Part shown: one piece after another, positions 1 through 13,974 of the stretch
Numbering within the stretch: the first letter of the stretch is position 1
How the letters are laid out: each line of letters begins with the position of its first letter
DNA from: a virus
Lineage: Duplodnaviria; Heunggongvirae; Uroviricota; Caudoviricetes
Strand: one strand, 5' to 3'
IMG/VR virus record: IMGVR_UViG_2531839579_000009
DNA length: 13,974 nt
Notes under the pieces: model-generated
The model's database searches: none
Told to the model about the DNA's origin: nothing
What the model saw: only the letters and a program-made list of their open reading frames with translations
Position numbers and translations under genes: made by a program

Positions 1-1577
1 CGTGGAAAATTGTCCGTAAAGGCAGGCATCAAGTTCCTGCTCCGACATGCCTGCGGGCAAAGGCCACGAAAGGCCAGCTCTCCGAAAGCGCACGAACATA
101 CTACAAACTGTTGATTTTGGTACACCCAGGCGACGCCCGGCCACAACCCGGGGTAAATGTTCTTCAAAGTGAAGACGTAAAGCTTCAGTGATCCAGGTCC
201 GGTGTTTCATACGATAGTGTCCATTAAAAATGATGGACATTATTTTTGTAGAGCCGGAGGAAACAGACCAGACGGTTTAAATGAGCCGGTTACAAAGCCA
301 GTGAGGCGGCGTATCTACTTTGCCCGCACTGCAGCGGCATTATCACTGCGGAGAAAAAGCGTGAGCTCAATAGTGCAGGAGTCTGGTTGCGTGAAGGGCA
401 GGTCATTGATCGTAACGGCAACGTTTCCGGTGAACCGCGCCGCTCCCGTATCGCCAGTTTCTGGATGGAAGGGCCAGCTGCTGCGTATCAGACCTGGGCG
501 CAACTGGTTTACAAATTACTGACTGCAGAACAGGAGTATGAAGCGACAGGAAGCGAAGAAACACTCAGGGCGGTTATCAACACCGACTGGGGATTGCCTT
601 ATCTTCCTCGTGCCAGCATGGAGCAACGAAAAAGTGAATTGCTTGAGCAGCGGGCAGAGCCAGTTCCTTCCCGCAGTGTGCCGGATGGCGTTAATTTCCT
701 TGTGGCGACAGTGGATGTGCAGGCGGGACGTCATCGCCGTTTTGTGGTTCAGGTAACGGGCTATGGCAGCCGTGGCGAACGCTGGATTATTGATCGTTAC
801 AACATCACGCAGTCATTGCGCGGTGACAGCGACGGGGAGAGCCAGCGAATTGATCCGGCCAGCTATCCGGAAGACTGGGATGTCCTGCTGACGGATGTTT
901 TTCATAAAAGCTGGCCGCTGGCCTCCGATCCTTCTCAACAAATGCGACTGATGGCAATGGCGGTGGACTCCGGCGGTGAAGACGGGGTCACTGATAATGC
1001 CTATAAATTCTGGCGTCGTTGCCGTCGTGATGGCCTTGGTAAACGTATTTACCTGTTTAAGGGCGACAGCATCCGGCGCGCAAAACTGATCACCCGTACA
1101 TTCCCTGATAACACCGGACGAACGGGCCGACGGGCGCAGGCCGCAGGTGATGTGCCGCTCTGGCTTCTTCAGACGGATGCCCTGAAAGATCGGGTGAATA
1201 ACGCGTTATGGCGTGACTCGCCAGGTCCCGGCTATGTGCATTTCCCTGACTGGCTGGGGAGCTGGTTTTACGACGAACTGACGTATGAAGAGCGGAGCAG
1301 TGACGGGAAATGGAGTAAGCCGGGTCGCGGTGCCAACGAAGCTTTTGACCTGATGGTGTATGCCGAGGCTCTGGTCATTCTGCATGGATACGAAAAGATC
1401 CGCTGGCCGGATGCACCGGAGTGGGCGAGCCGGGAAACCTGGCTGGAGTGTGTCCCGGACAGTACCGAACCGTCACCCTCACCGGAACCGGTATCCACGC
1501 CTGTTAAAAAACAAAAACGGAAGAAAACAGTAACTGACGATGTTAACCCCTGGCTGACTTCCGGAGGATGGTTATGA
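1..1577 (+). CDS. A: Terminase large subunit (lambda gpA-like), 5'-partial at window edge. Intact frame only from about 286 to 1577; homologous upstream segments lie in other frames.
   Basis: ORF 387..1577 translation (…WLREGQVIDRNG…FLVATVDVQAGRHRRFVVQVTGYG…WIIDRYNI…) aligns with the C-terminal half of lambda gpA as I recall it. A CPHC motif is in the same frame at about 313-324, upstream of the first ATG. Frames 0 and 1 are both open in different parts of 1-300. Confidence 0.8.
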
Positions 1578-1786: not shown

Positions 1787-3292
1787 TGGCAATTCTTGAT
1801 GATGTGATTGGCGTTTTTTCACCAGGATGGAAAGCGGCAAGGCTGCGTTCCCGTGCGGTGATCCAGGCTTATGAGGCCGTAAAAACGACGCGGACACACA
1901 AAGCCCGACGGGAGAACAGAACTGCCGACCAGTTAAGCCAGTACGGGGCCGTGTCGTTACGTGAGCAGGCCCGTTACCTTGATAACAACCACGATCTGGT
2001 TATTGGTGTATTTGACAAGCTGGAAGAACGGGTGGTGGGGAAAAACGGGATTATTGTCGAGCCACATCCGGTATTACGCAATGGGGCCATTGCCCGTGAT
2101 CTGGCAGCGGAGATACGTACCCGATGGAGTGAATGGTCTGTCAGCCGGAGTCACCGGGCAGTTTACCCGTCCGATGCTGGAACGTCTGATGCTGCGTACC
2201 TGGCTGCGCGATGGTGAGGTGTTTGCCCAGATGGTTTCCGGGCGCATAAACAGCCTGACGCCTTCTGCCGGTGTTCATTTCTGGCTGGAGGCGCTCGAGC
2301 CGGACTTTATTCCCATGACCAGTGATGAGAGCAACAGGCTGAATCAGGGCGTGTTTGTTGATGACTGGGGGCGTCCCGAAAAATATCTGGTGTATAAAAG
2401 TCGTCCTGTATCCGGACGGCAGATGGAAACCAAAGAAGTGGATGCAGAGCGAATGCTGCATCTTAAATTTGTTCGCCGTCTGCACCAGATGCGCGGGACG
2501 TCTTTATTGTCCGGTGTGCTGATCCGCCTCAGCGCCCTGAAAGAGTATGAAGATTCTGAGCTGACTGCAGCAAGGGTCGCCGCTGCTCTGGGGATGTACA
2601 TCCGCAAAGGCGACGGACAGAGCTATGAAACGGATGGTAATTACAGCAAGGAGAAGGAACGCGAGCTTACCATTCAGCCAGGCATTATTTACGATGATCT
2701 GAAACCCGGCGAAGAAATCGGAATGGTGAAGTCGGATCGCCCCAATCCTAACCTTGAAACTTTTCGTAATGCTCAGTTGCGTGCCGTGGCGGCGGGCAGT
2801 CGTCTGAGTTTTTCCAGTACAGCGCGCAACTATAACGGCACTTACAGCGCCCAGCGTCAGGAGCTGGTTGAATCCACTGATGGCTACCTGATCCTGCAGG
2901 ACTGGTTTATTGGTGCCGTCACCCGCCCGATGTATCGTGCATGGCTGAAACAGGCTGTGGCATCCGGTGTTATCAGGCTACCCCGCGATCTTGACCGTTC
3001 TTCACTGTATACCGCGGTGTATTCCGGACCAGTGATGCCGTGGATTGACCCTGTTAAGGAGGCTGAGGCCTGGAAAATCCAGATTCGTGGTGGAGCGGCG
3101 ACAGAATCAGACTGGGTACGTGCTGGTGGTCGTAATCCGGATGATGTCAAACGTCGGCGCAAGGCCGAAATTGATGAAAACCGCAAGCTGGACCTAGTAT
3201 TTGATACCGATCCGGCCAGTGATAAAGGAGGCAGTAGTGCCGCAACGAAACGACAGGAGCCGCAGCACACCGACGACCAGTCCGAAGATTAA
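1786..3292 (+). pseudogene. Phage portal protein, reading frame broken near 2140-2155 in this sequence
   Basis: ORFs 1714..2217 (frame 1) and 1961..3292 (frame 2) together form one portal-sized protein of about 500 aa. The switch occurs within agccggagtcaccggg. Position directly after gpW and before the prohead protease fits a portal. Confidence 0.8.
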
Positions 3293-3305
3293 TTCCTGGT
3301 TCAGG

Positions 3306-5264
3306 ATGCAGGCTGGTCACCAGAGTGACGCGGATATTTATATTTATGACGAGATTGGTTTCTGGGGTGTTACAGCGAAGCAGTTTATCAGTGATCTGAA
3401 TGCACTGGGCGATATCACCCACATTAATCTCCATATTAATTCACCGGGTGGCGATGTCTTTGAAGGCATCGCCATTTTTAATGCGCTGAAAACACATGGT
3501 GCGTCCATTACCGTTTATGTCGACGGTGTGGCGGCGTCAATGGCGTCGGTCATTGCGATGGTGGGAAATCCGGTCATTATGCCGGAAAACACCTTCATGA
3601 TGATTCATAAACCATTTGGCTTTACGGGCGGTGATGCGGAGGACATGCGCACCTATGCCGACCTGCTCGATAAAGTTGAGGCGGTTCTGTTACCCGCTTA
3701 TGCACAGAAAACCGGGAAAACCACCGATGAAATTGCTGCCATGCTGGCGGATGAGACCTGGATGTCCGGTGCCGAATGTCTGGCACAGGGATTTGCTGAT
3801 CAGGTGACGCCAGCCGTTAAGGCAATGGCATGTATTCAGTCAAAACGTACAGAGGAATTTAAAAAGATGCCGGAATCCATTCGAAACATGATTACTCCGC
3901 CACGCAACAGTGCTCCACGCGTACAGGATGATGAACCTGCAGCCTCCCGGACGCCAGTGCAGGCAGCAGCACCCGTGGTGGATGAAAACAGTATCCGTGC
4001 GCAGGTACTGGCAGAGCAAAAAGCGCGTGTAAACGGTATTAATGATCTGTTTGCCATGTTTGGCGGGCGTTATCAGACGCTGCAGGCTCAGTGTCTTGCC
4101 GATCCTGAATGTTCGCTGGAACAGGCCCGCGAAAAGCTGTTGAACGAGATGGGGCGCGAGTCCACGCCATCCAATAAAAATACCCCGGCTCATATTTATG
4201 CCGGTAACGGTAATTTTGTGGGGGACGGGATCCGCCAGGCGCTGATGGCGCGTGCCGGATTTGAAAAAACCGAACGTGATAATGTCTACAACGGGATGAC
4301 CCTGCGTGAATATGCCCGTATGTCACTGACTGAACGGGGTATTGGGGTTTCCAGTTATAACCCGATGCAGATGGTCGGTGCGGCGTTCACACACAGTACG
4401 TCTGACTTCGGTAATATTCTGCTGGATGTTGCGAACAAAGCCATTCTGCAGGGCTGGGAAGATGCCCCTGAAACCTATGAACAGTGGACGCGGAAAGGTC
4501 AGTTGTCTGATTTTAAAATTGCCCATCGTGTGGGTATGGGGGGCTTCAGTGCTCTGCGTCAGGTGCGTGAAGGGGCGGAATATAAATACGTCACCACCGG
4601 AGATAAACAGGCCACTATTGCACTGGCGACCTATGGCGAGCTGTTCAGTATCACCCGTCAGGCCATTATCAATGATGATCTGAATATGCTGACCGATGTC
4701 CCGATGAAACTGGGCCGTGCGGCGAAATCCACTATTGCCGATCTGGTTTATGCCATTCTGACGTCTAACCCGAAAATCTCCACAGATAATGTAAGTCTGT
4801 TCGATAAAGCGAAACATGCAAACGTACTGGAGAGCGCTGCAATGGACGTGGCATCGCTGGATAAAGCCCGCCAGTTGATGCGCGTTCAGAAAGAGGGGGA
4901 GCGTCATCTGAATATTCGTCCTGCGTTCGTACTGGTACCGACGGCGATGGAGTCTGTTGCTAACCAGGTCATTCGCTCCTCAAGTGTCAAGGGGGCTGAC
5001 ATTAACGCCGGTATTATTAACCCGGTGAAAGATTTTGCGACCGTTATTGCAGAGCCTCGTCTTGATGATAACAGCCTGACCACCTTCTACCTGGCTGCGT
5101 CAAAAGGCTCCGATACGATTGAAGTGGCTTATCTCAACGGTGTGGATACGCCATATATTGATCAGATGGAGGGCTTCAGTGTGGATGGCGTGACAACGAA
5201 AGTGCGTATTGACGCCGGTGTCGCGCCAGTTGATCACCGCGGTCTGGTGAAATGTACGGCGTAA
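3306..5264 (+). CDS. Fused prohead protease (ClpP/S14-like) - linker/scaffold-like region - major capsid protein (Mu gpT-like), single 652-aa ORF
   Basis: The N-terminal ~170 aa (…INSPGGDVFEGIAIFNALK…VDGVAASMASVIAMVG…) looks like a ClpP-family serine protease core. The middle is a low-complexity Q/A/E-rich segment. The C-terminal ~350 aa resembles Mu-like major head subunits. ATG 3306 is in frame, just after the portal stop at 3290-3292. No internal stop. Confidence 0.8.
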   Translation: MQAGHQSDADIYIYDEIGFWGVTAKQFISDLNALGDITHINLHINSPGGDVFEGIAIFNALKTHGASITVYVDGVAASMASVIAMVGNPVIMPENTFMMIHKPFGFTGGDAEDMRTYADLLDKVEAVLLPAYAQKTGKTTDEIAAMLADETWMSGAECLAQGFADQVTPAVKAMACIQSKRTEEFKKMPESIRNMITPPRNSAPRVQDDEPAASRTPVQAAAPVVDENSIRAQVLAEQKARVNGINDLFAMFGGRYQTLQAQCLADPECSLEQAREKLLNEMGRESTPSNKNTPAHIYAGNGNFVGDGIRQALMARAGFEKTERDNVYNGMTLREYARMSLTERGIGVSSYNPMQMVGAAFTHSTSDFGNILLDVANKAILQGWEDAPETYEQWTRKGQLSDFKIAHRVGMGGFSALRQVREGAEYKYVTTGDKQATIALATYGELFSITRQAIINDDLNMLTDVPMKLGRAAKSTIADLVYAILTSNPKISTDNVSLFDKAKHANVLESAAMDVASLDKARQLMRVQKEGERHLNIRPAFVLVPTAMESVANQVIRSSSVKGADINAGIINPVKDFATVIAEPRLDDNSLTTFYLAASKGSDTIEVAYLNGVDTPYIDQMEGFSVDGVTTKVRIDAGVAPVDHRGLVKCTA

Positions 5265-5287
5265 ACGTCGCAGACAACAACTCTGAT

Positions 5288-5307
5288 GGCCCGTAAGGGC
5301 TTTTTTT
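5288..5307 (+). terminator. Rho-independent terminator-like hairpin after the capsid gene
   Basis: GGCCC-GTAA-GGGC stem with a GNRA tetraloop, followed by T7 (5301-5307), 24 nt downstream of the capsid stop at 5262-5264. Confidence 0.5.
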
Positions 5308-5318
5308 GTACCTGAAAT

Positions 5319-5337
5319 CAGCCCCTGAACGGGGCTG
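5319..5337 (+). promoter_or_regulatory. Perfect 7-bp stem-loop (CAGCCCC-TGAAC-GGGGCTG) immediately upstream of the RBS of the next gene
   Basis: Read directly from the sequence. It lies between the terminator-like hairpin and GGAG at 5341-5344. Confidence 0.4.
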
Positions 5338-5350
5338 TGCGGAGACAGTT

Positions 5351-5674
5351 ATGGCAAAGAATTTTGTAGAAGAAGGAAAAACGGTGGCGATTGTTGCCAG
5401 TGCAGCCATCAGCAGTGGAGATCTGGTGCAGGTGGGTGATGTTTTTGCGGTAGCGCTGACCGATATTCCACAGGGTGAAACAGGCGACGGCCTGACCGAA
5501 GGTGTGTTTATGCTGCCTAAGCTGAAAACGGATGACATGAAAACGGGTAAGAAGGTTTATCTGAAGTCCGGAAAAGTTCAGTTGACTAACAGCGGCTCTG
5601 ATCCGCTGGTCGGGGTTGTCTGGGCAGATGCCGGAACCAGTGCAGAAGAAGTGCCGGTAAAACTCAATGTCTGA
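5351..5674 (+). CDS. DUF2190-like small head protein (putative head decoration/cement protein)
   Basis: 107 aa starting MAKNFVEEGKTV…, which I recognise as typical of the DUF2190 family that follows ClpP/Mu-gpT-type capsid genes. GGAG sits 6 nt upstream of ATG 5351. ORF 5306..5674 has an earlier in-frame ATG but no RBS. Confidence 0.65.
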   Translation: MAKNFVEEGKTVAIVASAAISSGDLVQVGDVFAVALTDIPQGETGDGLTEGVFMLPKLKTDDMKTGKKVYLKSGKVQLTNSGSDPLVGVVWADAGTSAEEVPVKLNV

Positions 5675-5942
5675 TCCCTTTTCCCGGCTGGCAGCGCGTA
5701 TGGATGCGATCACGGTTAGAAAGATGGGAAAGACAGCCTCGATTAATGATGCCGATATGACTGTGATCCCGGGAGAAACACTGGCAGAGCTGAATGCTCT
5801 GTCCGGACCTGCGGTATCTCTGGTGGTGTTTTCTTCGGGATACCGCCCACGGCGCGGGGATCGCGTTGTTTATGACGGACAACAATGGACGGTCACACGG
5901 CATGAACGTTTTAACGGTAAGCCAATGATCTTTATTGAGTAA
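5667..5942 (+). CDS. FII: Head-tail attachment protein (lambda gpFII-like)
   Basis: 91 aa with a C-terminal …RRGDRVVYDGQQWTVTRHE… resembling the lambda gpFII RRGD region. Start overlaps the upstream stop (ATGTCTGA), suggesting translational coupling. Sits directly before gpZ as in lambda. Confidence 0.55.
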   Translation: MSDPFSRLAARMDAITVRKMGKTASINDADMTVIPGETLAELNALSGPAVSLVVFSSGYRPRRGDRVVYDGQQWTVTRHERFNGKPMIFIE

Positions 5943-5953
5943 AGAGGTGTGGG

Positions 5954-6535
5954 ATGAAGGGGCTTGAGAATGCTATCCGCAATCTGAACAGCCTTGATAC
6001 CCGTATGGTGCCACAGGCCAGCGCATGGGCGATAAACCGTGTGGCACAGAAAGCGGTCTCGGTCGCCACCCGGCAGGTTGCCGGGAATACCGTTGCGGGA
6101 GATAACCAGGTGAAAGGGATCCCCCTGAAACTGGTACGTCAGCGTGTCCGGGTGTTTAAAGCCAGTCCGTCAGGAAAAATGACGGCCAGGATCCGCGTTA
6201 ACCGGGGCAATCTGCCCACCATCAAGCTGGGGACAGCCCGGGTCAGACTGGCCCGGCGTGGTGGAAAACTGCAGTACCGTGGCAGTATTCAGCAACTGGC
6301 GAATGGCCGCTGGCATGTTCTGAGGCGTCTTCCTGAAGCGCGTTTTGCAACAGGGCATGTGATGCGGCGTATTGATGGCAAAAATCGTTACCCCATTGAT
6401 GTGGTGAAAGTCCCGCTGTCCGGACCGCTGACACAAGCATTTGAAGATGCCCGCGACCGCATTATTGCTGCGGAAATGCCGAAACAGCTGGGGTATGCAC
6501 TGAAACAACAACTGAGGTTATGGCTGACCCGATGA
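5954..6535 (+). CDS. Z: Minor tail protein Z (tail completion)
   Basis: 193 aa. MKGLENAIRNLNSL…NGRWHV…KNRYPIDVVK…LGYAL…QLR matches lambda gpZ (192 aa) along its length. AGAGG sits 6 nt upstream. Confidence 0.9.
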   Translation: MKGLENAIRNLNSLDTRMVPQASAWAINRVAQKAVSVATRQVAGNTVAGDNQVKGIPLKLVRQRVRVFKASPSGKMTARIRVNRGNLPTIKLGTARVRLARRGGKLQYRGSIQQLANGRWHVLRRLPEARFATGHVMRRIDGKNRYPIDVVKVPLSGPLTQAFEDARDRIIAAEMPKQLGYALKQQLRLWLTR

Positions 6536-6931
6536 ACCGACATACACAAATCCGCCAGGCCGTACTGGCACGCCTTCGGAACAGTGTGGAGACAGCGCCA
6601 CGTTTTTTGACGGGCTTCCGGCATTTTTGATGCGCAGGAACTGCCTGCCGTGGCGGTGTGGCTGAGTGATGCTCAGTACACCGGAAAAATGACGGATGAA
6701 GATGACTGGCAGGCTGTTCTGCATATTGCTGTCTTCATCCGGGCACAGGCACCGGATTCAGAGCTGGATATGTGGATGGAGAGCACCATTTTCCCGGCTC
6801 TGAATGATATACCGGCACTTTCCGGACTCATCGACACCCTGATCCCTCTCGGTTTTAACTATCAACGTGATAATGAGATGGCCACCTGGGCGATGGCGGA
6901 AATCACGTACCAGATCACGTACACGAATTAA
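6532..6931 (+). pseudogene. U: Tail terminator protein U, frame broken twice (about 6600 and 6626) in this sequence
   Basis: N-terminus MNRHTQIRQAVLARL… is in frame 1 to 6600, TFFDGLPAF in frame 0 (6600-6626), and FDAQELPAVAVWLSDAQYTG…DSELDMWMES…ITYQITY in frame 2 to the stop at 6929-6931. Each piece matches lambda gpU. The second break is in a T5 run. Confidence 0.85.
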
Positions 6932-6941
6932 GGAGGTGGTA

Positions 6942-7681
6942 ATGACCACACCAAATCCACTGGCAAAAACGAAAGGTGCGGGAACGACGTTCTGGATGTA
7001 ACCGGCAAGGCGATGCGTTTGCGAACCCTTTTCGGACACTGACTGGTGCGTCTTGCGATGGTGAAGGATCTGCAACCTGGCGAAATGACCGCTGATGCAG
7101 AAGATGACACTTATCTCGATGATGAAGATGCAGACTGGAAAACGACAACCCAGGGGCAGAAATCCGTCGGTGATACTTCGGCGACGCTGGCCTGGCGTCC
7201 GGGGGACAGCGGGCAGAAAAAACTGGTTCAGTTGTTCGACTCCGGTGAAGTCTGCGCGTTTCGTATCAAATATCCCAACGGTACTGTTGATGTTTTCCGT
7301 GGCTGGCTGAGTTCACTGGGTAAAACCATTGCCTCAAAAGACGTGATGACCCGCACCGTGAAAATCAGCGGTGTGGGGCGTCCGTATCTGGCAGAGGAAG
7401 GCACTGAAACCGTGGGCGTTACCGGGCTGACGGTGGCACCGGCATCTGCCAGTGTAAAAGTGGGAGCAACCACCACGCTGACCTTTACAGTAAAACCTGA
7501 CGGAGCCAGTGACAAAGCGATCAGTGTGCATTCGACAGATCCACAGACTGCCACGGTGACCCTGAACGGGCTTGTGGCCACGGTGAAAGGCGTGAAGCAG
7601 GGCAGTGTCAGCATTGTGGGCATGACTTCTGACGGCGATTTTGTGGCCGTGGCTGCGGTGGCTGTCAGCGCCGCAGGTTAA
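6942..7681 (+). pseudogene. V: Major tail tube protein V with C-terminal Ig-like domain; four frame breaks within 6998-7049
   Basis: AGGAGG at 6931-6936, ATG 6942. MTTPNPLAKTKGAGTTFWM runs into a stop at 6999. Homology to lambda gpV then continues in frame 2, frame 1, frame 0 and back to frame 2 from 7049 to the stop at 7679-7681. Confidence 0.85.
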
Positions 7682-7701
7682 CAGGACGATACTCATCATT
7701 T

Positions 7702-7725
7702 GCCCCGGTTATCCGGGGCTTTTTT
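7702..7725 (+). terminator. Rho-independent terminator after gene V
   Basis: GCCCCGG-TTAT-CCGGGGC (7-bp GC-rich stem) followed by T6, 21 nt after the V stop. Confidence 0.7.
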
Positions 7726-7741
7726 GCAGGTGGAGAACATG

Positions 7742-8128
7742 ATGTTTCTGAAACAGGGCTCGTTTAATTATGAAAAGCAGTCCGTGGTGCTCAGTGAGCT
7801 GTCCGGGCTGCAGAGAATTGAATATCTGGCGTTTGTTCAGCAGCGAACGGCAAAGTTTGATGCCGAAGAGGGAGAACTGCCGGAGGCTGAACGACAGATT
7901 GCTTTTCTGCGGATGGGGATGGATATCAATGCCTGGCTGGTTTCCCGCTCACTGTGGAATGCGGATCAGTCTAAGGATGTAGAGACGCTTTGCGCATCCG
8001 TTATTACAACATGGTCGTATGATGCCCTGGGTGCGGGGGCGGAGATGGTTCTGTCGCTGAGCGGTATGGGGGCCATTGATAATGCCGGGGATGATGAGCA
8101 TGAGGCGCTGACGCCGGAAAAGTCCTGA
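7742..8128 (+). CDS. G: Tail assembly chaperone G
   Basis: MFLKQGSFNYEKQSVVLSELSGLQRIEYLA… matches the lambda gpG N-terminus (MFLKTESFEHNGVTVTLSELSALQRIEHLA…). GGAG sits 6 nt upstream of ATG 7742. Stop at 8126-8128. Confidence 0.85.
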   Translation: MFLKQGSFNYEKQSVVLSELSGLQRIEYLAFVQQRTAKFDAEEGELPEAERQIAFLRMGMDINAWLVSRSLWNADQSKDVETLCASVITTWSYDALGAGAEMVLSLSGMGAIDNAGDDEHEALTPEKS

Positions 8129-8465
8129 CGCGGGAAATGCAGTTTGTCATGCGGCTTGCCCGGGAGTTCCGGCGGGCAGACTGGCGGCGGATGCTGTCGG
8201 AAATGTCGGCCACTGAGCTTGGTGAGTGGGGCGATTATTTCCGGATGCAGAGCTTCAGTGATGTGTGGATGGATGCGCAGTTTGCCTCGCTGAAGGCATT
8301 GATCGTGAGAATGGTGTCCGGCAGCAGTGATGCTGCGGTGGCTGATTTCAGCCTTTTACCGGAAGAGAACGGGATACCGGAGCGAACGGACGAAGAACTG
8401 ATGCATCTTGGGAAGGTATTTCCGGAGGTGTGCGTTATGGACCAGATAGCCAACCTGGTCATTGA
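8104..8465 (+). CDS. T: gpT segment of the G-T tail assembly chaperone (expressed only as a G-T fusion by -1 frameshift). 3' end uncertain: as written the frame reads through into H.
   Basis: The -1 frame relative to G encodes …REFRRADWRRMLSEMSATELGEWGDYFRMQSFSD…, which I recognise as gpT-like. There is no stop in this frame before 9615. A plausible gpT C-terminus (…GGVRYGPD… with stop at 8463-8465) is in another frame from about 8410. Confidence 0.5.
8116..8122 (+). promoter_or_regulatory. Candidate -1 programmed ribosomal frameshift site (G GAA AAG) for the G-T fusion
   Basis: Heptamer in the G frame 4 nt before the G stop. The -1 frame is open from 8104 and encodes a gpT-like sequence. 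Lambda uses G GGA AAG at the equivalent place. Confidence 0.5.
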
Positions 8466-11400
8466 TTTGGGGATTGATGCGGCAGAGTTTAAAAATGAAA
8501 TTCCCCGTATCAAAAACCTTCTGAATGGTGCCGCCAGCGATGCAGAACGGTCTTCTGCCCGTATGCAGCGTTTTATGGAGCGTCAGACTCAGGCCGCCCG
8601 GCAGACAACGCAGGCGGCTTCTTCGGCTGCAACAGCCGCCTCCGTCCATGCGCAGACGGTGGAGAAGAACGCACAGGCTCATGAACGCATGGCCCGCGAG
8701 GTGGAGAAAACCCGCCAGCGCATGGAGGCGCTGAGCCAGAAAATGCGCGATGAACAGGCGCAGGCCATGGCTCTGGCGGAGGCTCAGGATAAAGCGGCTG
8801 CTGCGTTTTATCGTCAGATTGACAGTGTGAAACAGGCCAGTGCGGGGCTGCAGGAATTACAGCGTATTCAGCAGCAGATCCGACAGGCCAGAAACAGTGG
8901 CGGGATTGGTCAGCAGGATTATCTGGCGCTGATTTCTGAGGTTACGGCGAAAACCCGTGTTCTTACACAGGCTGAGGAAGAGGCTACCCGACAGAAAGTG
9001 GCGTTTATCCGTCAGCTTAAAGAGCAGGCAACCCGCCAGAATCTTTCTTCTTCTGAGTTGCTTCGTGCTAAGGCTGCCCAGCTGGGGGTAAGCAGTGCTG
9101 CAGAAGTGTATATCCGCAAAATGGAGCAGGCAGGAAAAGCCACGCATTCGCTGGGTCTGAAAAGTGCAGCGGCCCGTCAGGAGATAGGCGTTCTGATAGG
9201 TGAACTGGCCCGCGGCAATTTAGGTGCGCTGAGGGGATCCGGAATAACGCTGGCTAACCGTGCCGGGTGGATAGACACATTGATGTCACCGAAAGGCATG
9301 ATGCTTGGCGGGGTTATTGGCGGTATTGCCGCGGCTGTCTATGGTCTGGGTAAAGCCTGGTATGACGGTCAGAAGGAGGGGGAAGAATTTAACCGCCAGC
9401 TGTCGCTGACGGGGCATTATGCCGGAGTCACTGCCGGGCAGCTGTGGACGCTCAGTCGTGCTATTTCCGGGAATGGTATCACGCAACATGCTGCAGCCGG
9501 TGCGCTGGCTCAGGTGGTGGGGAGTGGTGCATTTCGTGGAAACGATATCGGTATGGTGGCGAGAGTGCCGCACAGATGGAGCGATCGGTTGGCCAGTCGG
9601 TCAGCGATACCATAAGTCAGTTTAAGCGGCTGAAGGATGATCCTGTAAATGCCGCGAAGGCTCTGGACAATGAGCTGCATTTTCTTACTGCCACTCAGCT
9701 TGAGCAGATACGCGTCCTTGGGGAGCAGGGGCGGTCCAGTGATGCTGCACGGATAGCCATGTCTGCACTGGCAGAGGAAACCGGTCGGCGTACTGCGGAT
9801 ATTGATAATAACCTCAATGCGCTTGGCAGTACGCTGAAGTATCTGTCTGATTTGTGGAGTCGTTTCTGGGATGCGGCCATGAATATTGGTCGTGAAGACT
9901 CGCTGGATGAACAGATTGCCGCTTTACAGGAGAAAGTGTCGCGGGCGAAAAGACTCCCCTGGACGGCATCATCTTCTCAGGTTGAATACGATCAGCAGCG
10001 TCTTAACGATCTTCAGGAGAAAAAACGCCAGAAGGATTTGCAGGATGCAAAAGAGCAGGCAGAGCGGAATTATCAGGAGCAACAGAAACGCCGTAATGCT
10101 GAAAATGCTGCACTGAACCGGATGAATGAAACGGAAGCAGCACGACATCAGCGTGAAATTGCGCGTATTAATGCCATGCAGTACGCCGATCAGGCTGTCA
10201 GGGATGCGGCGATACAACGTGAAAATGAACGTTACGAGAAAGCCCTGGCATCCGGTAAGAAAAAAACACGCGAAACCCGTAATGATGAGGCCACCCGGTT
10301 ATTGCTGCAGTACAGTCAGCAACAGGCACAGGTGGAAGGACAGATTGCTGCTGCAGACAGTCAGCAGGCATTGCCACTGACAGGATGACAGAAGCGCATA
10401 AACAGCTTCTGGCTCTGCAGCAGCGCATCAGCGACCTGGACGGGAAAAAACTGACGGCAGATGAAAAGAGTGTGCTGGCCCGTAAAGATGAACTGATTCA
10501 GGCACTGACGCTGCTGGATGTAAAACAGCAGGAGCTTCAGAAACAGACGGCACTCAACGATCTGAAGAAAAAAACAATTCAGCTGACCAGTCAACTGGCT
10601 GAAGAAGAGCGCGCTCAGCGTCAGCAACATGACCTGGATATCGCCACGGTGGGTATGGGTGATCAGCAGCGGCAGCGATATCAGGTACAACTGAGTCTTC
10701 GCCAGAAATACCAGCAACAGCTGGAGCAGTTGAGGCGGGATAGTGAGCAGAAAGGAACATATAACACGGATGACTACAGAAAGGCCGAGCAGGCGCTGAC
10801 GGAGAGCCTGAACCGACAACTGAATGAGAATCGCCGTTACTGGCAACAGCTTGAAGTTGCTCAGGGTGACTGGAAAAACGGAGTCCTGCGTGCACTCCAG
10901 AATGTCACTGAGGAAGCGGATAACACGGCAGAAACAGCAGAACAGGTGTTCTCGTCAGCCTTCAGCAACATGGGAAATGGCCTGGCAACTTTTGTCACTA
11001 CCGGCAAACTCAATTTCAAATCCTTCACCTCTTCTGTGCTGTCAGATATGGCGAAAATCCTGGCGCAGATAGCTTTAATGAAAGCGGTAAAAGGTATTGC
11101 TTCCGCGCTGCCTTTTGATCTTGTAGCCAATGCTGATGGCGGTGTTTATCAGTCGGCTGATTTGAGTCGCTACAGTGGCACGGTGGTTAACCGTCCGACG
11201 TTTTTTGCTTTTGCAAAAGGCGCGGGTGTGATGGGGGAAGCGGGACCTGAAGCCATTCTGCCATTGCGTCGTGGTGCTGACGGTAAGCTGGGGGTTGTGG
11301 CGGATATTGGGGGTTCAGGTATGGCGATGTTTGCCCCGCAGTACAACATCGAGATCAATAACGATGGCACGAACGGGCAGATAGGTCCGGCTGCCCTGAA

Positions 11401-11491
11401 GGCGGTTTATGACCTCGGGAAAAAAGCGGCAGCGGACTTTATGCAACAGCAGGCCCGTGATGGTGGTCGGTTAAGTGGAGCATATCGGTAA
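8437..11491 (+). pseudogene. H: Tail tape measure protein H (about 1018 aa) with two frame breaks (about 9560 and 10384)
   Basis: Start MDQIANLVIDLGIDAAEFK matches the lambda gpH N-terminus. Three consecutive ORFs (8137..9615, 9444..10388, 10385..11491) in frames 1, 0 and 2 each continue the homology. C-terminus …NNDGTNGQIGPAALKAVYDLGKKAAADFMQQQARDGGRLSGAYR matches the lambda gpH end. Confidence 0.85.
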
Positions 11492-11820
11492 TGGAGACGT
11501 TTCACTGGAAAGTGCGCCCGGATATGAATGTGGTATCAGAGCCGAAAGTGGTGACAGTGAAGCTGGGCGATGGTTATGAACAGCGTCGTGCGGCGGGACT
11601 GAATAACCAGTTGTCGACTTACAGCGTGACGATACGTGTTCGTAAATGTGACCACCCATCTTTAAAAGCCTTTCTGGAACGGCACGGTGGCGTCCGTGCA
11701 TTTCAGTGGACGCCACCTTATGACTGGAAACCGATCAGGGTGGTTTGTCGTAAATGGTCGGCAAGCGTGGGGGCGCTGTGGGTAACCATAACGGCAGATT
11801 TTGAACAGGTCGTGGCATAG
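11491..11820 (+). CDS. M: Minor tail protein M
   Basis: 109 aa. METFHWKVRPDMNV…GDGYEQRRAAGLN…TYSV…FLERHGG…WTPPYDW…FEQVV matches lambda gpM (109 aa) end to end. Start overlaps the H stop (TAATG). Confidence 0.9.
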   Translation: METFHWKVRPDMNVVSEPKVVTVKLGDGYEQRRAAGLNNQLSTYSVTIRVRKCDHPSLKAFLERHGGVRAFQWTPPYDWKPIRVVCRKWSASVGALWVTITADFEQVVA

Positions 11821-11829
11821 GAGGCTCTG

Positions 11830-12495
11830 ATGCAGGATATTCCACAGGAAACACATCATGAGACGACACGCCTCACTCAGTCAGCCCAGGTGGTGCTCTG
11901 GGAAATCGATCTGACAGAGGTCGGTGGTGAACGTTATTTTTTCTGTAATGAGCAGAACGAAAAAGGTGAGCCGGTCACCTGGCAGGGGCGGCAGTATCAG
12001 GCATACCCCATTCAGGGGACGGGATTTGAACTGAACGGAAGGGCAGTGCTCCGCCACCTGACGGTTCTAACCTGACGGATGGTCACCGGGATGGCGGAAG
12101 ACTGCAGAGTCTGGTCGGCGGAACGGTGGTCGGCGTAAGGTTTACGCCCGTTTTCTGGATGCGGTGAACTTCGTCAACGGAAACAGAGCCGATCCGGAGC
12201 AGGAGGTGATCAGCCGCTGGCGCATGAGCAGTGAGCGAACTGAGGCGGTAGTGCCTCTTTGTCTTCCACCCGACGAAACGGATGGGCTGTTTTTCCGGGC
12301 GATCATGCTGGCCAACACCTGCACCTGGACCTATCGCGGGAGAGTGCGGTTATCGGTCCGGCGTCGCGGATGAATATGACCAGCCACGTCCGATATCACG
12401 AAGGATAAATGCAGCAAATGCCTGAGGGCTGTAAGTTTCGCAATAACGTCGGCAACTTTGGCGGCTTCCTTTCCATTAACAAACTTTCGCAGTAA
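11830..12495 (+). pseudogene. L: Minor tail protein L, multiply frame-broken between about 12039 and 12430
   Basis: AGGAGG sits 5 nt upstream. The first 69 aa (MQDI…VVLWEIDLTEVGGERYFFCNEQNEKGEPVTWQGRQYQ…ELNG) are near-identical to lambda gpL. After 12039, exact lambda-like peptides appear in alternating frames, ending in-frame with …GFLSINKLSQ and a stop at 12493-12495. Confidence 0.85.
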
Positions 12496-12499
12496 TCCC

Positions 12500-13226
12500 A
12501 TGACAAGACAGAATCAGCGATTCTGGCGCACGCCCGGCGATGTGCGCCAGCGGAGTCGTGCGGCTTCGTGGTGAGAACGCCGGAGGGGAAAGATATTTTC
12601 CCTGCGTGAATATCTCCGGTGAGCCGGAGGCGTATTTCCGGATGTCGCCGGAGGACTGGCTGCAGGCAGAATGCAGGGTGAGATTGTGGCGCTGGTCCAC
12701 AGCCACCCCGGTGGTCTGCCCTGGCTGAGTGAGGCGACCGGCGGCTGCAGGTGCAGAGTGATTTGCCGTGGTGGCTGGTCTGCCGGGGGCGATTCATAAT
12801 TCCGCTGTGTGCCGCATCTCACCGGGCGGCGCTTTGAGCACGGGGTGACGGACTGTTACACGCTGTTCCGGGAGCTTACATCTGGCGGGATTGAGATGCC
12901 GGATTTTCATCGCGGGGATACTGGTGGCGTCACGGTCAGAATCTCTATCTGGATAATCTGGAGGCCACAGGGCTGTATCAGGTGCCGTTGTCAGCGGCGC
13001 AGCCGGGCGATGTGCTGCTGTGCTGTTTTGGTTCATCGGTGCCGAATCATGCCGCCATTTACTGGGGACGGGAGCTGCTGCACCATATTCCTGAACAACT
13101 GAGAAACGAGAGAGGTATACCGACAAATGGCAGCGACGCACACACTCCCTCTGGCGTCACCGGGATGGCACGCATCTGCCTTTACGGGGATTTCAACGAT
13201 TTGGCCGCCGCATCGACCTTCGGTGA
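12500..13226 (+). pseudogene. K: Tail tip assembly protein K (JAMM/MPN plus NlpC/P60-type domains), multiply frame-broken
   Basis: MTRQNQRFWR… start. Lambda gpK-like peptides (CGFVVR; GGERYFPCVNIS…EAYFRMSPEDWLQAE; EIVALVHSHPGGLPWLSEA; DRRLQVQSDLPWWLVCRG; PHLTGRRFEHGVTDCYTLFR; GIEMPDFHR; NLYLDNLEATGLYQVPLSAAQPGDVLLCCFGSSVPNHAAIY…ELLHHIPEQL) are spread over all three frames. Confidence 0.8.
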
Positions 13227-13764
13227 AAACGGGGCGAAGCCATCCGGGCGCTGGCCATGCAGTCCCGGCGTTTCGTCAGAACTGAGCGACGGCTGGTATC
13301 AGGTACGCATTGCCGGGCGTGATGCAGGTGAAACCGAATTGTCTGCCCGTCTTAATGAGCCGCTGGCAAATGGTGCCGTGATCCAATCGTGCCGCGTCTG
13401 GCGGGAGCTAAAAGTGGCGGTGTGTTTCAGGTGGTGCTGGGGGCGGCGTTGATTGCGGTGGCATGGTGGAACCCTGTGGGCTGGCTGGGTGCCGCGGCTG
13501 TATCGGGCATGTATGCGGCAGGGGCCAGTATGATCCTGGGCGGGTGGCGCAGATGCTGGCACCGAAAGCCAGGACGCCACGGCAGCCAGTACAGATAACG
13601 GCAAACAGAACACCTATTTTTCCTCACTGGATAACATGGTTGCTCAGGGCAATGTTTTGCCTGTTCTGTACGGGGAAATGCGTGTGGGGTCGCGGGTGGT
13701 TTCTCAGGAGATCAGCACGGCAGACGAAGGGGACGGTGGTCAGGTTGTGGTGATTGGTCGCTGA
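13127..13764 (+). pseudogene. I: Tail tip assembly protein I, multiply frame-broken; overlaps the 3' end of K
   Basis: MAATHTLPLASPG start. MARICLYGD, QRFGRRIDLR, VKTG…PAFRQ, LSDGWYQVRIAGRD, AGAKSGGVFQVVLGAA, VAQMLAPKARTPR and DNGKQNTYFSSLDNMVAQGNVLPVLYGEMRVGSRVVSQEISTADEGDGGQVVVIGR match lambda gpI but in alternating frames. Stop at 13762-13764. Confidence 0.8.
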
Positions 13765-13782
13765 TGCAAAATGTTTTATGTG

Positions 13783-13806
13783 AAACCGCCTCCGGGCGGT
13801 TTTATC
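13783..13806 (+). terminator. Hairpin (AAACCGCC-TCCG-GGCGGTTT) followed by a T-run in the I-J intergenic region; terminator-like or attenuating structure
   Basis: 8-bp stem read from the sequence, followed by TTTTATCGTTT. Lies between the I stop (13764) and the J start (13825). Confidence 0.4.
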
Positions 13807-13824
13807 GTTTATGGAGCATGACGA

Positions 13825-13974
13825 ATGGGTAAAGGCAGCAGTAAGGGGCATACCCCGCGCGAAGCAAAGGACAACCTGAAGTCCACGCAGTTGCTGAGTG
13901 TGATCGATGCCATCAGCGAAGGGCCGGTTGAAGGTCCGGTGGATGGATTAAAAAGCGTGCTGCTGAACAGAACG
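13825..13974 (+). CDS. J: Tail tip / host specificity protein J, N-terminal 50 codons only (3'-partial, runs off the window)
   Basis: MGKGSSKGHTPREAKDNLKSTQLLSVIDAISEGPVEGPVDGLKSVLLN is essentially identical to the lambda gpJ N-terminus as I recall it. GGAG sits 8 nt upstream. Confidence 0.9.
   Translation, partial: MGKGSSKGHTPREAKDNLKSTQLLSVIDAISEGPVEGPVDGLKSVLLNRT

What the first reader, a model, noticed from the sequence alone, without database searches (positions are those of the whole stretch)
8104..8130. G-T frameshift site is GGAAAAG rather than the lambda-type GGGAAAG
The -1 frame opens at 8104 and encodes gpT-like sequence, so a G-T fusion by -1 slippage is expected. The only plausible heptamer is G GAA AAG at 8116-8122, 4 nt before the G stop. 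The AAG to AAA slip in the A site is canonical, but the P-site shift GAA to GGA needs a non-standard re-pairing. This is either a variant slippery site or a substitution or indel artefact.
Basis: partly seen in the sequence, partly recalled or inferred. Interest (0 to 1): 0.45.

Follow-up and report, generated by a model that had tools for sequence, protein, structure and literature searches.

The report
Known variant phage tail frameshift site
The GGAAAAG at the end of the phage tail-chaperone gene G is the genuine, widely conserved site where ribosomes slip back one base to make the G-T fusion protein; it is already annotated as such in phages N15 and LLS, so the finding is real but ordinary.

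Summary
G (7739-8128) ends ...CCG GAA AAG TCC TGA. The -1 frame opens at 8104 and encodes a lambda-T homologue. G GAA AAG (8116-8122) is the only shift-prone sequence in the 22-nt overlap.

It is not an artefact:
- The heptamer is identical in phages cdtI and mEp460 and in the E2348/69 prophage.
- All 120+ IMG/VR contigs matching a pattern that allowed either GGAAAAG or GGGAAAG carry GGAAAAG.
- In 65 distinct G/T junctions from Enterobacterales and reference phages, the homologous position reads GGAAAAG in 51 and lambda's GGGAAAG in 5.
- The heptamer is the most conserved stretch in variable flanks. Six different preceding codons all end in G.

GenBank already marks this heptamer as the -1 slippery sequence in phage N15 (NC_001901) and phage LLS (PQ299149).

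Likely mechanism (inferred): tRNA-Lys slips AAG to AAA, and tRNA-Glu re-pairs GAA to GGA through a central G:U pair. The expected yield is low, as in lambda. No conserved downstream structure was found. An upstream GAGG is present here but is not conserved across the family.

Separately, the window is error-rich, with about 79 mostly 1-nt deletions against its closest intact relative. One deletion, in the G run at 8410-8412, fuses the T frame to the tape-measure frame. None touches G or the slip site.

Novelty: already known. Interest: low.

The parts
7702..7725 (+). Terminator-like GC hairpin plus T run between the major tail gene and G
   Evidence: One search finds a 7-pair, all-GC stem followed by TTTTTT. 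The same element is annotated as a rho-independent terminator in mEp460 and N15.
7739..8128 (+). Gene G, tail assembly chaperone, zero frame. Starts at ATG 7739 or 7742; stop TGA at 8126-8128.
   Evidence: Translation. Pfam PF06894 E=1e-39. NCBIfam TIGR01674 phage_lambda_G E=8e-56. No indel against relatives in this stretch.
8101..8103 (+). TGA in the -1 frame; it sets the upstream limit of the G/T overlap
   Evidence: The -1 frame is open from 8104.
8102..8105 (+). GAGG, a Shine-Dalgarno-like tetramer 10 nt upstream of the heptamer. Possible stimulator in this lineage; untested.
   Evidence: Sequence. The spacing falls in the 6-17 nt range shown to be stimulatory in E. coli (Sharma 2014, PMC4066793). 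Only 23 of 65 distinct family junctions have such a motif, against 18% at control positions.
8116..8122 (+). Slippery heptamer G_GAA_AAG, the site of the -1 shift from G into T
   Evidence: Identical in cdtI, mEp460, E2348/69 and 606R10. All 124 pattern matches have A at position 3. 51 of 65 distinct family junctions carry it, and it is the lowest-entropy stretch. The same heptamer at the homologous site is annotated as slippery in N15 and LLS.
8122..8409 (+). T segment in the -1 frame, up to the point where the window loses one base
   Evidence: Translation. PF06223 and TIGR01715. Aligns from its first codon with lambda, N15-type, phi80 and LLS T.
8410..8412 (+). G run that is one base shorter than in relatives (GGG here, GGGG in cdtI and others). 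This shifts the T 3' end into another frame, so the -1 frame runs on into the tape-measure frame as far as 9615.
   Evidence: Alignments. ORF 8137..9615. Only 1 of 1831 E. coli records shares the deletion.
8413..8465 (+). True 3' end of T (EGISGGVRYGPDSQPGH, stop TGA 8463-8465). In the window it is readable only in the third frame because of the missing base.
   Evidence: Translation. It matches the T C-termini GI(S/T/A)GG(V/I)RYGP of lambda, HK225, phi80 and LLS.
8437..11491 (+). Tape measure gene. It starts at ATG 8437 and overlaps the end of T. In the window it is broken into three frames.
   Evidence: ORFs 8137..9615, 9444..10388 and 10385..11491. TMP_2 Pfam match. Single-base deletions at 9566 and 10355 against an intact 3057-nt homologue.

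Best explanation
GGAAAAG at 8116-8122 is the native programmed -1 ribosomal frameshift site of a lambda-type G/GT tail assembly chaperone gene pair, in a cdtI/mEp460-like E. coli prophage.

Most ribosomes read CCG GAA AAG TCC TGA and release G. A small fraction slip back one base while tRNA-Glu occupies GAA (P site) and tRNA-Lys occupies AAG (A site). tRNA-Lys re-pairs cognately with AAA. tRNA-Glu re-pairs with GGA through G:C, a central G:U, and A:U. Translation then continues with GTC CTG ACG... to give the G-T fusion.

The site appears to work as a bare slippery sequence at low efficiency, as in lambda. An upstream GAGG may add some stimulation in this lineage.

Shown here: the anatomy, the homology, the conservation, and the prior annotation. 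Inferred: the tRNA re-pairing scheme and the efficiency.
For: 1. Frames and coordinates are as described.
2. G and T belong to the lambda G and T families. They lie between the major tail gene and the tape measure gene.
3. The heptamer sits at exactly the position of lambda's G_GGA_AAG. In both phages the fusion continues K-V-(L/F) and reaches the LAREx(G/R)RxDWR motif 12 codons later.
4. The sequence is native. It is identical in four reference sequences, and 124 of 124 matches to CCGGRAAAGTCC... have A.
5. Across 65 distinct junctions from more than 25 genera, positions 2 and 4-6 of the heptamer are invariant and positions 1 and 7 are 62/65 G, while flanking positions carry 1-1.9 bits of entropy. 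GGAAAAG accounts for 51 and GGGAAAG for 5.
6. Among the GGAAAAG sites the preceding codon is GCG, CCG, CTG, TTG, ACG or GTG. That is five amino acids, always ending in G, as expected if position 1 is selected for P-site re-pairing.
7. AAG is kept although it is the minor Lys codon in E. coli, at 24%.
8. 34 of 65 junctions have no ATG in the first 20 T codons, so T cannot generally be started independently.
9. GenBank annotators mark this heptamer as the -1 slippery sequence in N15 and LLS.
10. A_AAG is the most shift-prone tetramer in E. coli. NNA_AAG motifs and G_GA-type first halves are documented (PMC4066793; PMC5009743). GAA-to-GGA re-pairing through G:U has been discussed for phage chaperone sites, and XXYYYY ('twofour') is a recognised motif class (PMC10885494).
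Against: - No experiment on this heptamer was found in the held literature. Frameshifting at G_GAA_AAG is therefore supported by comparative evidence and annotation only.
- A central G:U pair in the P site is predicted to be weaker than A:U (PMC6787027).
- No conserved downstream structure was found. The window's 100 nt fold at z = -0.96, and the family mean z is -0.07.
- The SD-like motif is not conserved across the family.
- Morganella prophages have A_GAA_AAG, so P-site re-pairing is not strictly required.
- As the window stands, the -1 frame does not stop at the end of T. This is explained by a missing base at 8410-8412.
Confidence: 0.9

Rival explanations
1. The heptamer is a sequencing or assembly error, or a recent mutation, of a lambda-type GGGAAAG.
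For: The window is error-rich, with 79 gap openings against its closest intact relative. It includes a lost base in T at 8410-8412, so suspicion of artefacts was reasonable.
Against: No indel occurs between 7047 and 8412. The heptamer is identical in curated phage genomes cdtI and mEp460 and in E2348/69. 124 of 124 matches to a pattern allowing A or G have A. 51 of 65 distinct family junctions have GGAAAAG.
Confidence: 0.01
2. There is no frameshift. T is an independent gene translated from ATG 8137, as public annotations of cdtI, mEp460 and RefSeq prophages draw it.
For: An in-frame ATG exists at 8137. PGAP and the cdtI and mEp460 records annotate T as a separate CDS from that ATG.
Against: - The T frame is open and conserved upstream of that ATG, back to the heptamer. 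The KV(L/F) continuation aligns with lambda, where only the GT fusion is made (PMC5009743).
- The ATG is lineage-specific. 34 of 65 junctions have no ATG in the first 20 T codons, and in others the Met falls at codon 10, inside the conserved helix.
- The bases before 8137 (GCGGGAA) offer only a weak, closely spaced SD.
- N15 and LLS annotators join G and T at this heptamer.
Confidence: 0.04
3. The shift is real but involves a single tRNA: only tRNA-Lys slips on A_AAG (tetramer or NNA_AAG hexamer mode), and tRNA-Glu does not re-pair. Alternatively, the slip occurs with tRNA-Lys in the P site while the ribosome waits near the stop.
For: - A_AAG alone supports -1 shifting in E. coli, and NNA_AAG sites such as CGA_AAG are used naturally.
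- Morganella relatives have A_GAA_AAG_TAA, where P-site re-pairing would be poor.
- In 27 of 65 junctions the stop is 0 or 1 codon after AAG.
Against: Position 1 is G in 62 of 65 junctions. It is G after six different preceding codons, which points to selection on the base that only a re-pairing P-site tRNA would use. Tetramers give roughly tenfold less shifting than heptamers under the same stimulator.
Confidence: 0.2
4. The G-T fusion arises from transcriptional slippage of RNA polymerase on the A run, not from ribosomal slippage.
For: The site contains a short A run (AAAA).
Against: From general knowledge, not tested here: four A residues are far below the run lengths at which productive transcriptional slippage is described. 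The conserved frame-specific pattern N_GNA_AAG, with a fixed register relative to the G frame, fits tRNA re-pairing rather than polymerase stuttering.
Confidence: 0.01

Closest known systems
Phage lambda G/GT -1 programmed frameshift (G_GGA_AAG; Levin, Hendrix and Casjens 1993, as summarised in PMC5009743 and PMC3296357)
   Same: The gene families are the same (G: PF06894/TIGR01674; T: PF06223/TIGR01715). The gene order V-G-T-H is the same. The shift is -1 at the homologous codon pair. The A-site slip is the same (AAG to AAA by tRNA-Lys). The T reading frame after the shift is the same. No conserved downstream structure is found.
   Different: The third base of the heptamer is A, not G. The P-site codon is therefore GAA (tRNA-Glu) rather than GGA (tRNA-Gly), and re-pairing needs a central G:U. 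The G stop lies 1 codon after the site rather than 5. T is about 36% identical and lacks lambda's 34-residue C-terminal repeat.
Phage N15 genes 14/15 (NC_001901) and phage LLS genes 11/12 (PQ299149): annotated -1 slippery sequence GGAAAAG
   Same: The heptamer is identical, sits at the homologous position, and belongs to the same gene families. The depositors explicitly mark it as the -1 frameshift site. HK225, phi80 and Klebsiella phage Kp4865-4 carry it too.
   Different: T is only about 40% identical. The flanking codons differ (GCG or GTG before; CCC after). The G stop is 5 codons downstream in N15 and LLS. Those sites lack the GAGG at -10.
NNA_AAG hexanucleotide and A_AAG tetranucleotide -1 sites in bacteria (IS1222 G_CGA_AAG, B. 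subtilis cdd A_CGA_AAG; Fayet laboratory studies, reviewed in PMC5009743 and PMC4066793)
   Same: The A-site AAG-to-AAA slip by the single E. coli tRNA-Lys is the driving event. The P-site codon ends in A and is not part of a homopolymeric triplet. The product level is low.
   Different: Here position 1 is a conserved G, which allows near-cognate P-site re-pairing, so the site is intermediate between hexamer and heptamer. No pseudoknot or hairpin stimulator was detected.
'twofour' (XXYYYY) and GGGGGAA slippery motifs in phage tail assembly chaperone genes (PRFect, PMC10885494)
   Same: GGAAAA fits the two-plus-four pattern. That paper also invokes tRNA-Glu re-pairing from GAA to GGA through G:U.
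   Different: Those motifs were derived mainly from actinobacteriophage annotations and were not tested experimentally. In GGGGGAA the GAA codon is the second codon of the pair, not the first.

Membership tests
Lambda-type G/GT tail assembly chaperone with -1 programmed frameshift | The upstream ORF is a lambda G homologue. | tested here: met
   PF06894 E=1.1e-39 and TIGR01674 (equivalog) E=8e-56, both above the curated cut-offs.
Lambda-type G/GT tail assembly chaperone with -1 programmed frameshift | The downstream segment is a lambda T homologue, in the -1 frame, overlapping the 3' end of G. | tested here: met
   PF06223 E=8.5e-13 and TIGR01715 E=1.8e-30. The -1 frame is open from 8104 and the G stop is at 8126.
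Lambda-type G/GT tail assembly chaperone with -1 programmed frameshift | The pair is located between the major tail protein gene and the tape measure gene. | tested here: met
   Annotation of collinear relatives. TMP_2 domain in the ORF that starts at 8437.
Lambda-type G/GT tail assembly chaperone with -1 programmed frameshift | A canonical X_XXY_YYZ heptamer lies in the overlap. | tested here: not met
   The site is G_GAA_AAG, so the first triplet GGA is not homopolymeric. The YYZ half (A_AAG) is canonical. Most family members share this departure: 51 of 65.
Lambda-type G/GT tail assembly chaperone with -1 programmed frameshift | T has no translation start of its own. | tested here: inconclusive
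   The window has an ATG at T codon 6 (8137). It is not conserved: 34 of 65 junctions have no ATG in the first 20 T codons.
Lambda-type G/GT tail assembly chaperone with -1 programmed frameshift | A G-T fusion protein is made at a few per cent of G. | not testable with these tools
   This needs a reporter assay, immunoblot or mass spectrometry. Lambda's value of about 4% comes from PMC3296357.
NNA_AAG / A_AAG low-level -1 shift sites of E. coli | A zero-frame AAG codon is preceded by a codon ending in A, giving A_AAG. | tested here: met
   GAA AAG at 8117-8122 in the G frame.
NNA_AAG / A_AAG low-level -1 shift sites of E. coli | A flanking stimulator is present: an upstream SD-like element or a downstream hairpin or pseudoknot. 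| tested here: inconclusive
   GAGG at 8102-8105 lies within the stimulatory spacing, but such a motif is found in only 35% of family junctions against 18% of controls. Downstream folding is no better than shuffles.

The most novel reading that the evidence does not exclude
G_GAA_AAG, not lambda's G_GGA_AAG, is the standard G-T shift site of enterobacterial lambdoid phages. Both slipping tRNAs, tRNA-Glu and tRNA-Lys, carry mnm5s2U34. This class could therefore set a different G:GT ratio and depend more strongly than lambda on the host 2-thiouridine (IscS/Tus/MnmA) pathway, which would give the host a sharper lever over tail assembly. The majority status is shown here. The functional consequence is speculation.
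Probability: 0.2. Interest if true: 0.35.

Novelty: already known. Interest (0 to 1): 0.1.

Why it matters
It matters little as a discovery. The site is a known, annotated variant of a textbook recoding signal, in a very common E. coli prophage: about a third of complete E. coli genomes match this stretch.

Three practical points follow:
- Lambda's GGGAAAG is the minority form in its own gene family. Frameshift finders and annotators that demand X_XXY_YYZ will miss most G-T junctions. RefSeq/PGAP and the cdtI and mEp460 records do annotate T as a separate ORF.
- The invariant G at position 1, kept across six different preceding codons, is comparative evidence that near-cognate P-site re-pairing through G:U is under selection.
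- The window itself is a low-quality sequence, so frame breaks elsewhere in it should not be read as biology.

Tried and rejected
1. Artefact hypothesis: rejected by alignment with four references and by the A-or-G pattern scan.
2. A protein-based scan of viral contigs with the T segment returned only 100% identical copies. It gave no information on diversity, so I switched to an alignment-based scan of one genome per species.
3. Downstream stimulatory structure: folding 8123-8222 gave z = -0.96. Sixty nt downstream in 65 junctions gave a mean z of -0.07, with only 2 below -2. Rejected as a conserved feature.
4. Upstream SD-like stimulator: present in the window, but only about a two-fold enrichment across the family. 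This is partly explained by a conserved Glu codon (GAG or GAA) four codons before GAA. Not accepted as a defining part.
5. Independent initiation of T: rejected as a general mechanism.
6. Literature searches for GGAAAAG or G_GAA_AAG as a frameshift site found nothing relevant in the held library. Licznar et al. 2003 (NNA_AAG series) could not be opened, so the measured efficiency of GAA_AAG could not be quoted. Xu, Hendrix and Duda 2004 was not looked up.
7. Source of the window: the only E. coli record sharing the 8410-8412 deletion (CP025910.1, at the record end) is just 96.2% identical to the window over 8052-13970. The exact source was not identified.

Full report
**Observation**

The window carries a lambda-like tail gene block. 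The G ORF runs from ATG 7739 (or 7742) to TGA 8126-8128. Its last codons are CCG GAA AAG TCC TGA.

From 8122 it reads VLTREMQFVMRLAREFRRADWRRML....

G matches Pfam PF06894 and NCBIfam TIGR01674 (phage_lambda_G). The -1 frame segment matches PF06223 and TIGR01715 (phage_lam_T). All scores are above the curated cut-offs.

GGAAAAG lies at 8116-8122 in the register G_GAA_AAG. Only 8104-8125 can support a productive -1 shift, and that stretch holds no other shift-prone sequence. The bare heptamer is not rare: it occurs 4 times in the window against 2.1 expected. Everything therefore rests on frame, position and conservation.

**Is it an artefact?**

No.
- Megablast of 7700-8500 finds 17 phage records and 1849 complete E. 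coli records at 95% identity or more.
- In an alignment with phage cdtI, phage mEp460, the E2348/69 prophage and phage 606R10, the stretch CCGGAAAAGTCCTGA is invariant.
The sequence just upstream varies among them.
- The window has no indel against its closest intact relative between 7047 and 8412.

**How it compares with lambda and the wider family**

Lambda reads GCG GGA AAG TGT... and continues after the shift as K-V-F-D-G-E-L-S-F-A-L-K-L-A-R-E. The window continues K-V-L-T-R-E-M-Q-F-V-M-R-L-A-R-E. The two heptamers therefore occupy the same codon pair, 12 codons before the conserved LARE motif.

A tblastn spread over annotated phages, followed by fetching, showed the same GGAAAAG in HK225, phi80, LLS, Klebsiella phage Kp4865-4 and N15. 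Two records annotate it explicitly:
- N15 (NC_001901): misc_feature 10027..10033, 'slippery sequence for -1 translational frameshift'.
- LLS (PQ299149): 'minus-one programmed translational frameshift site GGAAAAG', with a joined GT CDS.

A scan of one genome per species with an alignment of six T segments gave 80 loci. Pooled with the reference phages and reduced to unique 97-nt contexts, this left 65 distinct junctions from more than 25 genera:

| Heptamer | Junctions | Where |
|---|---|---|
| GGAAAAG | 51 | most genera |
| GGGAAAG | 5 | lambda, E. albertii, Escherichia spp., Edwardsiella |
| AGAAAAG | 3 | Morganella; followed directly by TAA |
| GGTAAAG | 3 | Pantoea and an unclassified Enterobacterales MAG |
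| GGCAAAA | 2 | Kluyvera, Ewingella; followed directly by TAG |
| GGGAAAA | 1 | Providencia; followed directly by TAG |

Column entropies show the heptamer as the conserved island. Positions 2 and 4-6 are invariant and positions 1 and 7 are G in 62 of 65. Flanking positions carry 1-1.9 bits.

Among the GGAAAAG sites the preceding codon is GCG (23), CCG (16), CTG (6), TTG (2), ACG (2) or GTG (2). These encode five amino acids, and every codon ends in G. That is the signature expected if the base at position 1 is selected at the RNA level. AAG is kept although it is the minor Lys codon in E. coli, at 24%.

**Mechanism (inferred)**

The family-wide constant is A_AAG preceded by a G-N-A codon context. 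In E. coli, A_AAG is by far the best tetramer, and X_XXA_AAG the best heptamers, because the single tRNA-Lys re-pairs cognately from AAG to AAA (PMC4066793).

NNA_AAG hexamers are used naturally, and their efficiency depends on the P-site tRNA. Intermediates between hexamer and heptamer, including first halves of the form G_GA, are described in PMC5009743.

Here the P-site tRNA-Glu would re-pair from GAA to GGA with G:C, a central G:U, and A:U. This re-pairing has been discussed for phage chaperone sites. The two-plus-four pattern is one of the motif classes derived from annotated phage frameshifts (PMC10885494). A P-site G:U is predicted to be weaker than A:U (PMC6787027), so efficiency may be below lambda's roughly 4%. 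G-T needs only a low level.

I found no downstream stimulator. The 100 nt after the site fold no better than shuffles (z = -0.96). The mean z over 65 junctions is -0.07.

The window has GAGG at 8102-8105, 10 nt before the heptamer and within the spacing shown to stimulate. Such motifs occur in only 23 of 65 junctions, against 18% of control positions. They partly reflect a conserved Glu codon. I treat it as a possible lineage-specific helper and nothing more.

Independent initiation of T at ATG 8137, as many public records draw it, is unlikely. The T frame is conserved back to the heptamer, and 34 of 65 junctions have no ATG in the first 20 T codons.

**What is really wrong in the window**

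Against cdtI and others the window lacks one G in the run at 8410-8412. As a result the true T C-terminus (EGISGGVRYGPDSQPGH, stop at 8463-8465) sits in a third frame. The -1 frame runs straight into the tape-measure frame as far as 9615.

Against the closest intact prophage (E. coli 120899) the window shows 79 gap openings. Almost all are single bases missing from the window, and many are not in homopolymers. They cluster at 6242-6376, 7001-7047 and 12039-13577, with single events at 9566 and 10355 that split the tape measure gene into three ORFs.

Only 1 of 1831 E. coli records shares the 8410-8412 deletion. That copy lies at the very end of the CP025910.1 record, where PGAP flags T, the tape measure and the C40 peptidase as frameshifted. 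It is not identical to the window. This pattern fits unpolished long-read consensus better than gene decay.

**Verdict**

The 'variant slippery site' reading is supported and the artefact reading is refuted. The variant is already annotated in N15 and LLS and falls within described motif classes, so novelty is 'already known' and interest is low.

The one mildly useful by-product is the census showing that lambda's GGGAAAG is the minority form in its own family, and that position 1 is under RNA-level selection.

Noticed in passing
window 8410-8412: The G run is one base shorter than in cdtI, mEp460, E2348/69 and 606R10. The T 3' end (EGISGGVRYGPDSQPGH*, stop 8463-8465) therefore falls out of frame. 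As written, the -1 frame continues into the tape-measure frame to 9615, which would give a spurious G-T-H fusion ORF. Only 1 of 1831 E. coli records shares the deletion.
   Followed up: yes
window 2145-13577 (clusters at 6242-6376, 7001-7047, 12039-13577; single events at 9566 and 10355): There are 79 gap openings against the closest intact prophage (E. coli 120899). Nearly all are single bases missing from the window, and many are outside homopolymers. The tape measure gene is split into three ORFs (8137..9615, 9444..10388, 10385..11491). The pattern looks like unpolished long-read consensus rather than biology, so frame breaks elsewhere in this window should be distrusted.
   Followed up: yes
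L291 (NZ_CP025910.1, last ~9.4 kb of the record): A copy of this prophage tail block lies at the very end of a 'complete' circular chromosome record. PGAP flags T, the tape measure and the C40 peptidase as frameshifted there. It is probably a low-quality assembly end. It shares the T deletion but is only 96.2% identical to the window.
   Followed up: partly
window 7702-7725: A perfect 7-bp GC hairpin followed by TTTTTT lies between the major tail gene and G. It is annotated as a rho-independent terminator in mEp460 and N15. A terminator just upstream of G/GT could lower G, T and H expression relative to the major tail protein.
   Followed up: partly
L223-L225 (Morganella), L232/L234/L235 (Pantoea and an Enterobacterales MAG), L219/L220 (Kluyvera, Ewingella), L251 (Providencia): Other natural variants occur at the same G/T junction: A_GAA_AAG followed directly by TAA, G_GTA_AAG, G_GCA_AAA followed by TAG, and G_GGA_AAA followed by TAG. 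In 9 of 65 junctions the G stop directly abuts the slip site, a 'shifty stop' arrangement.
   Followed up: partly
L271-L285, L288, L289 (genome contigs): Lambda-identical G/T sequences sit on short contigs, several labelled with about 1x coverage. The assemblies are of unrelated organisms (Kitasatospora, Neobacillus, Oceanobacillus, Shewanella, Leeuwenhoekiella, Enterococcus, Pseudoxanthomonas and others). This is most likely lambda control-DNA contamination. It would inflate any naive count of GGGAAAG sites.
   Followed up: no
window 8137-8465, with relatives L001-L003 and L292: Public annotations (cdtI, mEp460, RefSeq/PGAP) call T as a free-standing ORF from ATG 8137 and give no G-T join. 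N15 and LLS annotate the frameshift. The GT fusion protein is therefore missing from the protein sets of most of the roughly 1800 E. coli genomes that carry this prophage type.
   Followed up: partly
window 1-1577: In the collinear relative (L292), the left end of this stretch is annotated as the end of an IS66-like tnpA on the minus strand (1-240). It is followed by a terminase large-subunit gene marked 'missing N-terminus' (297-1577). The prophage head module therefore appears to be truncated by an IS66 insertion.
   Followed up: no
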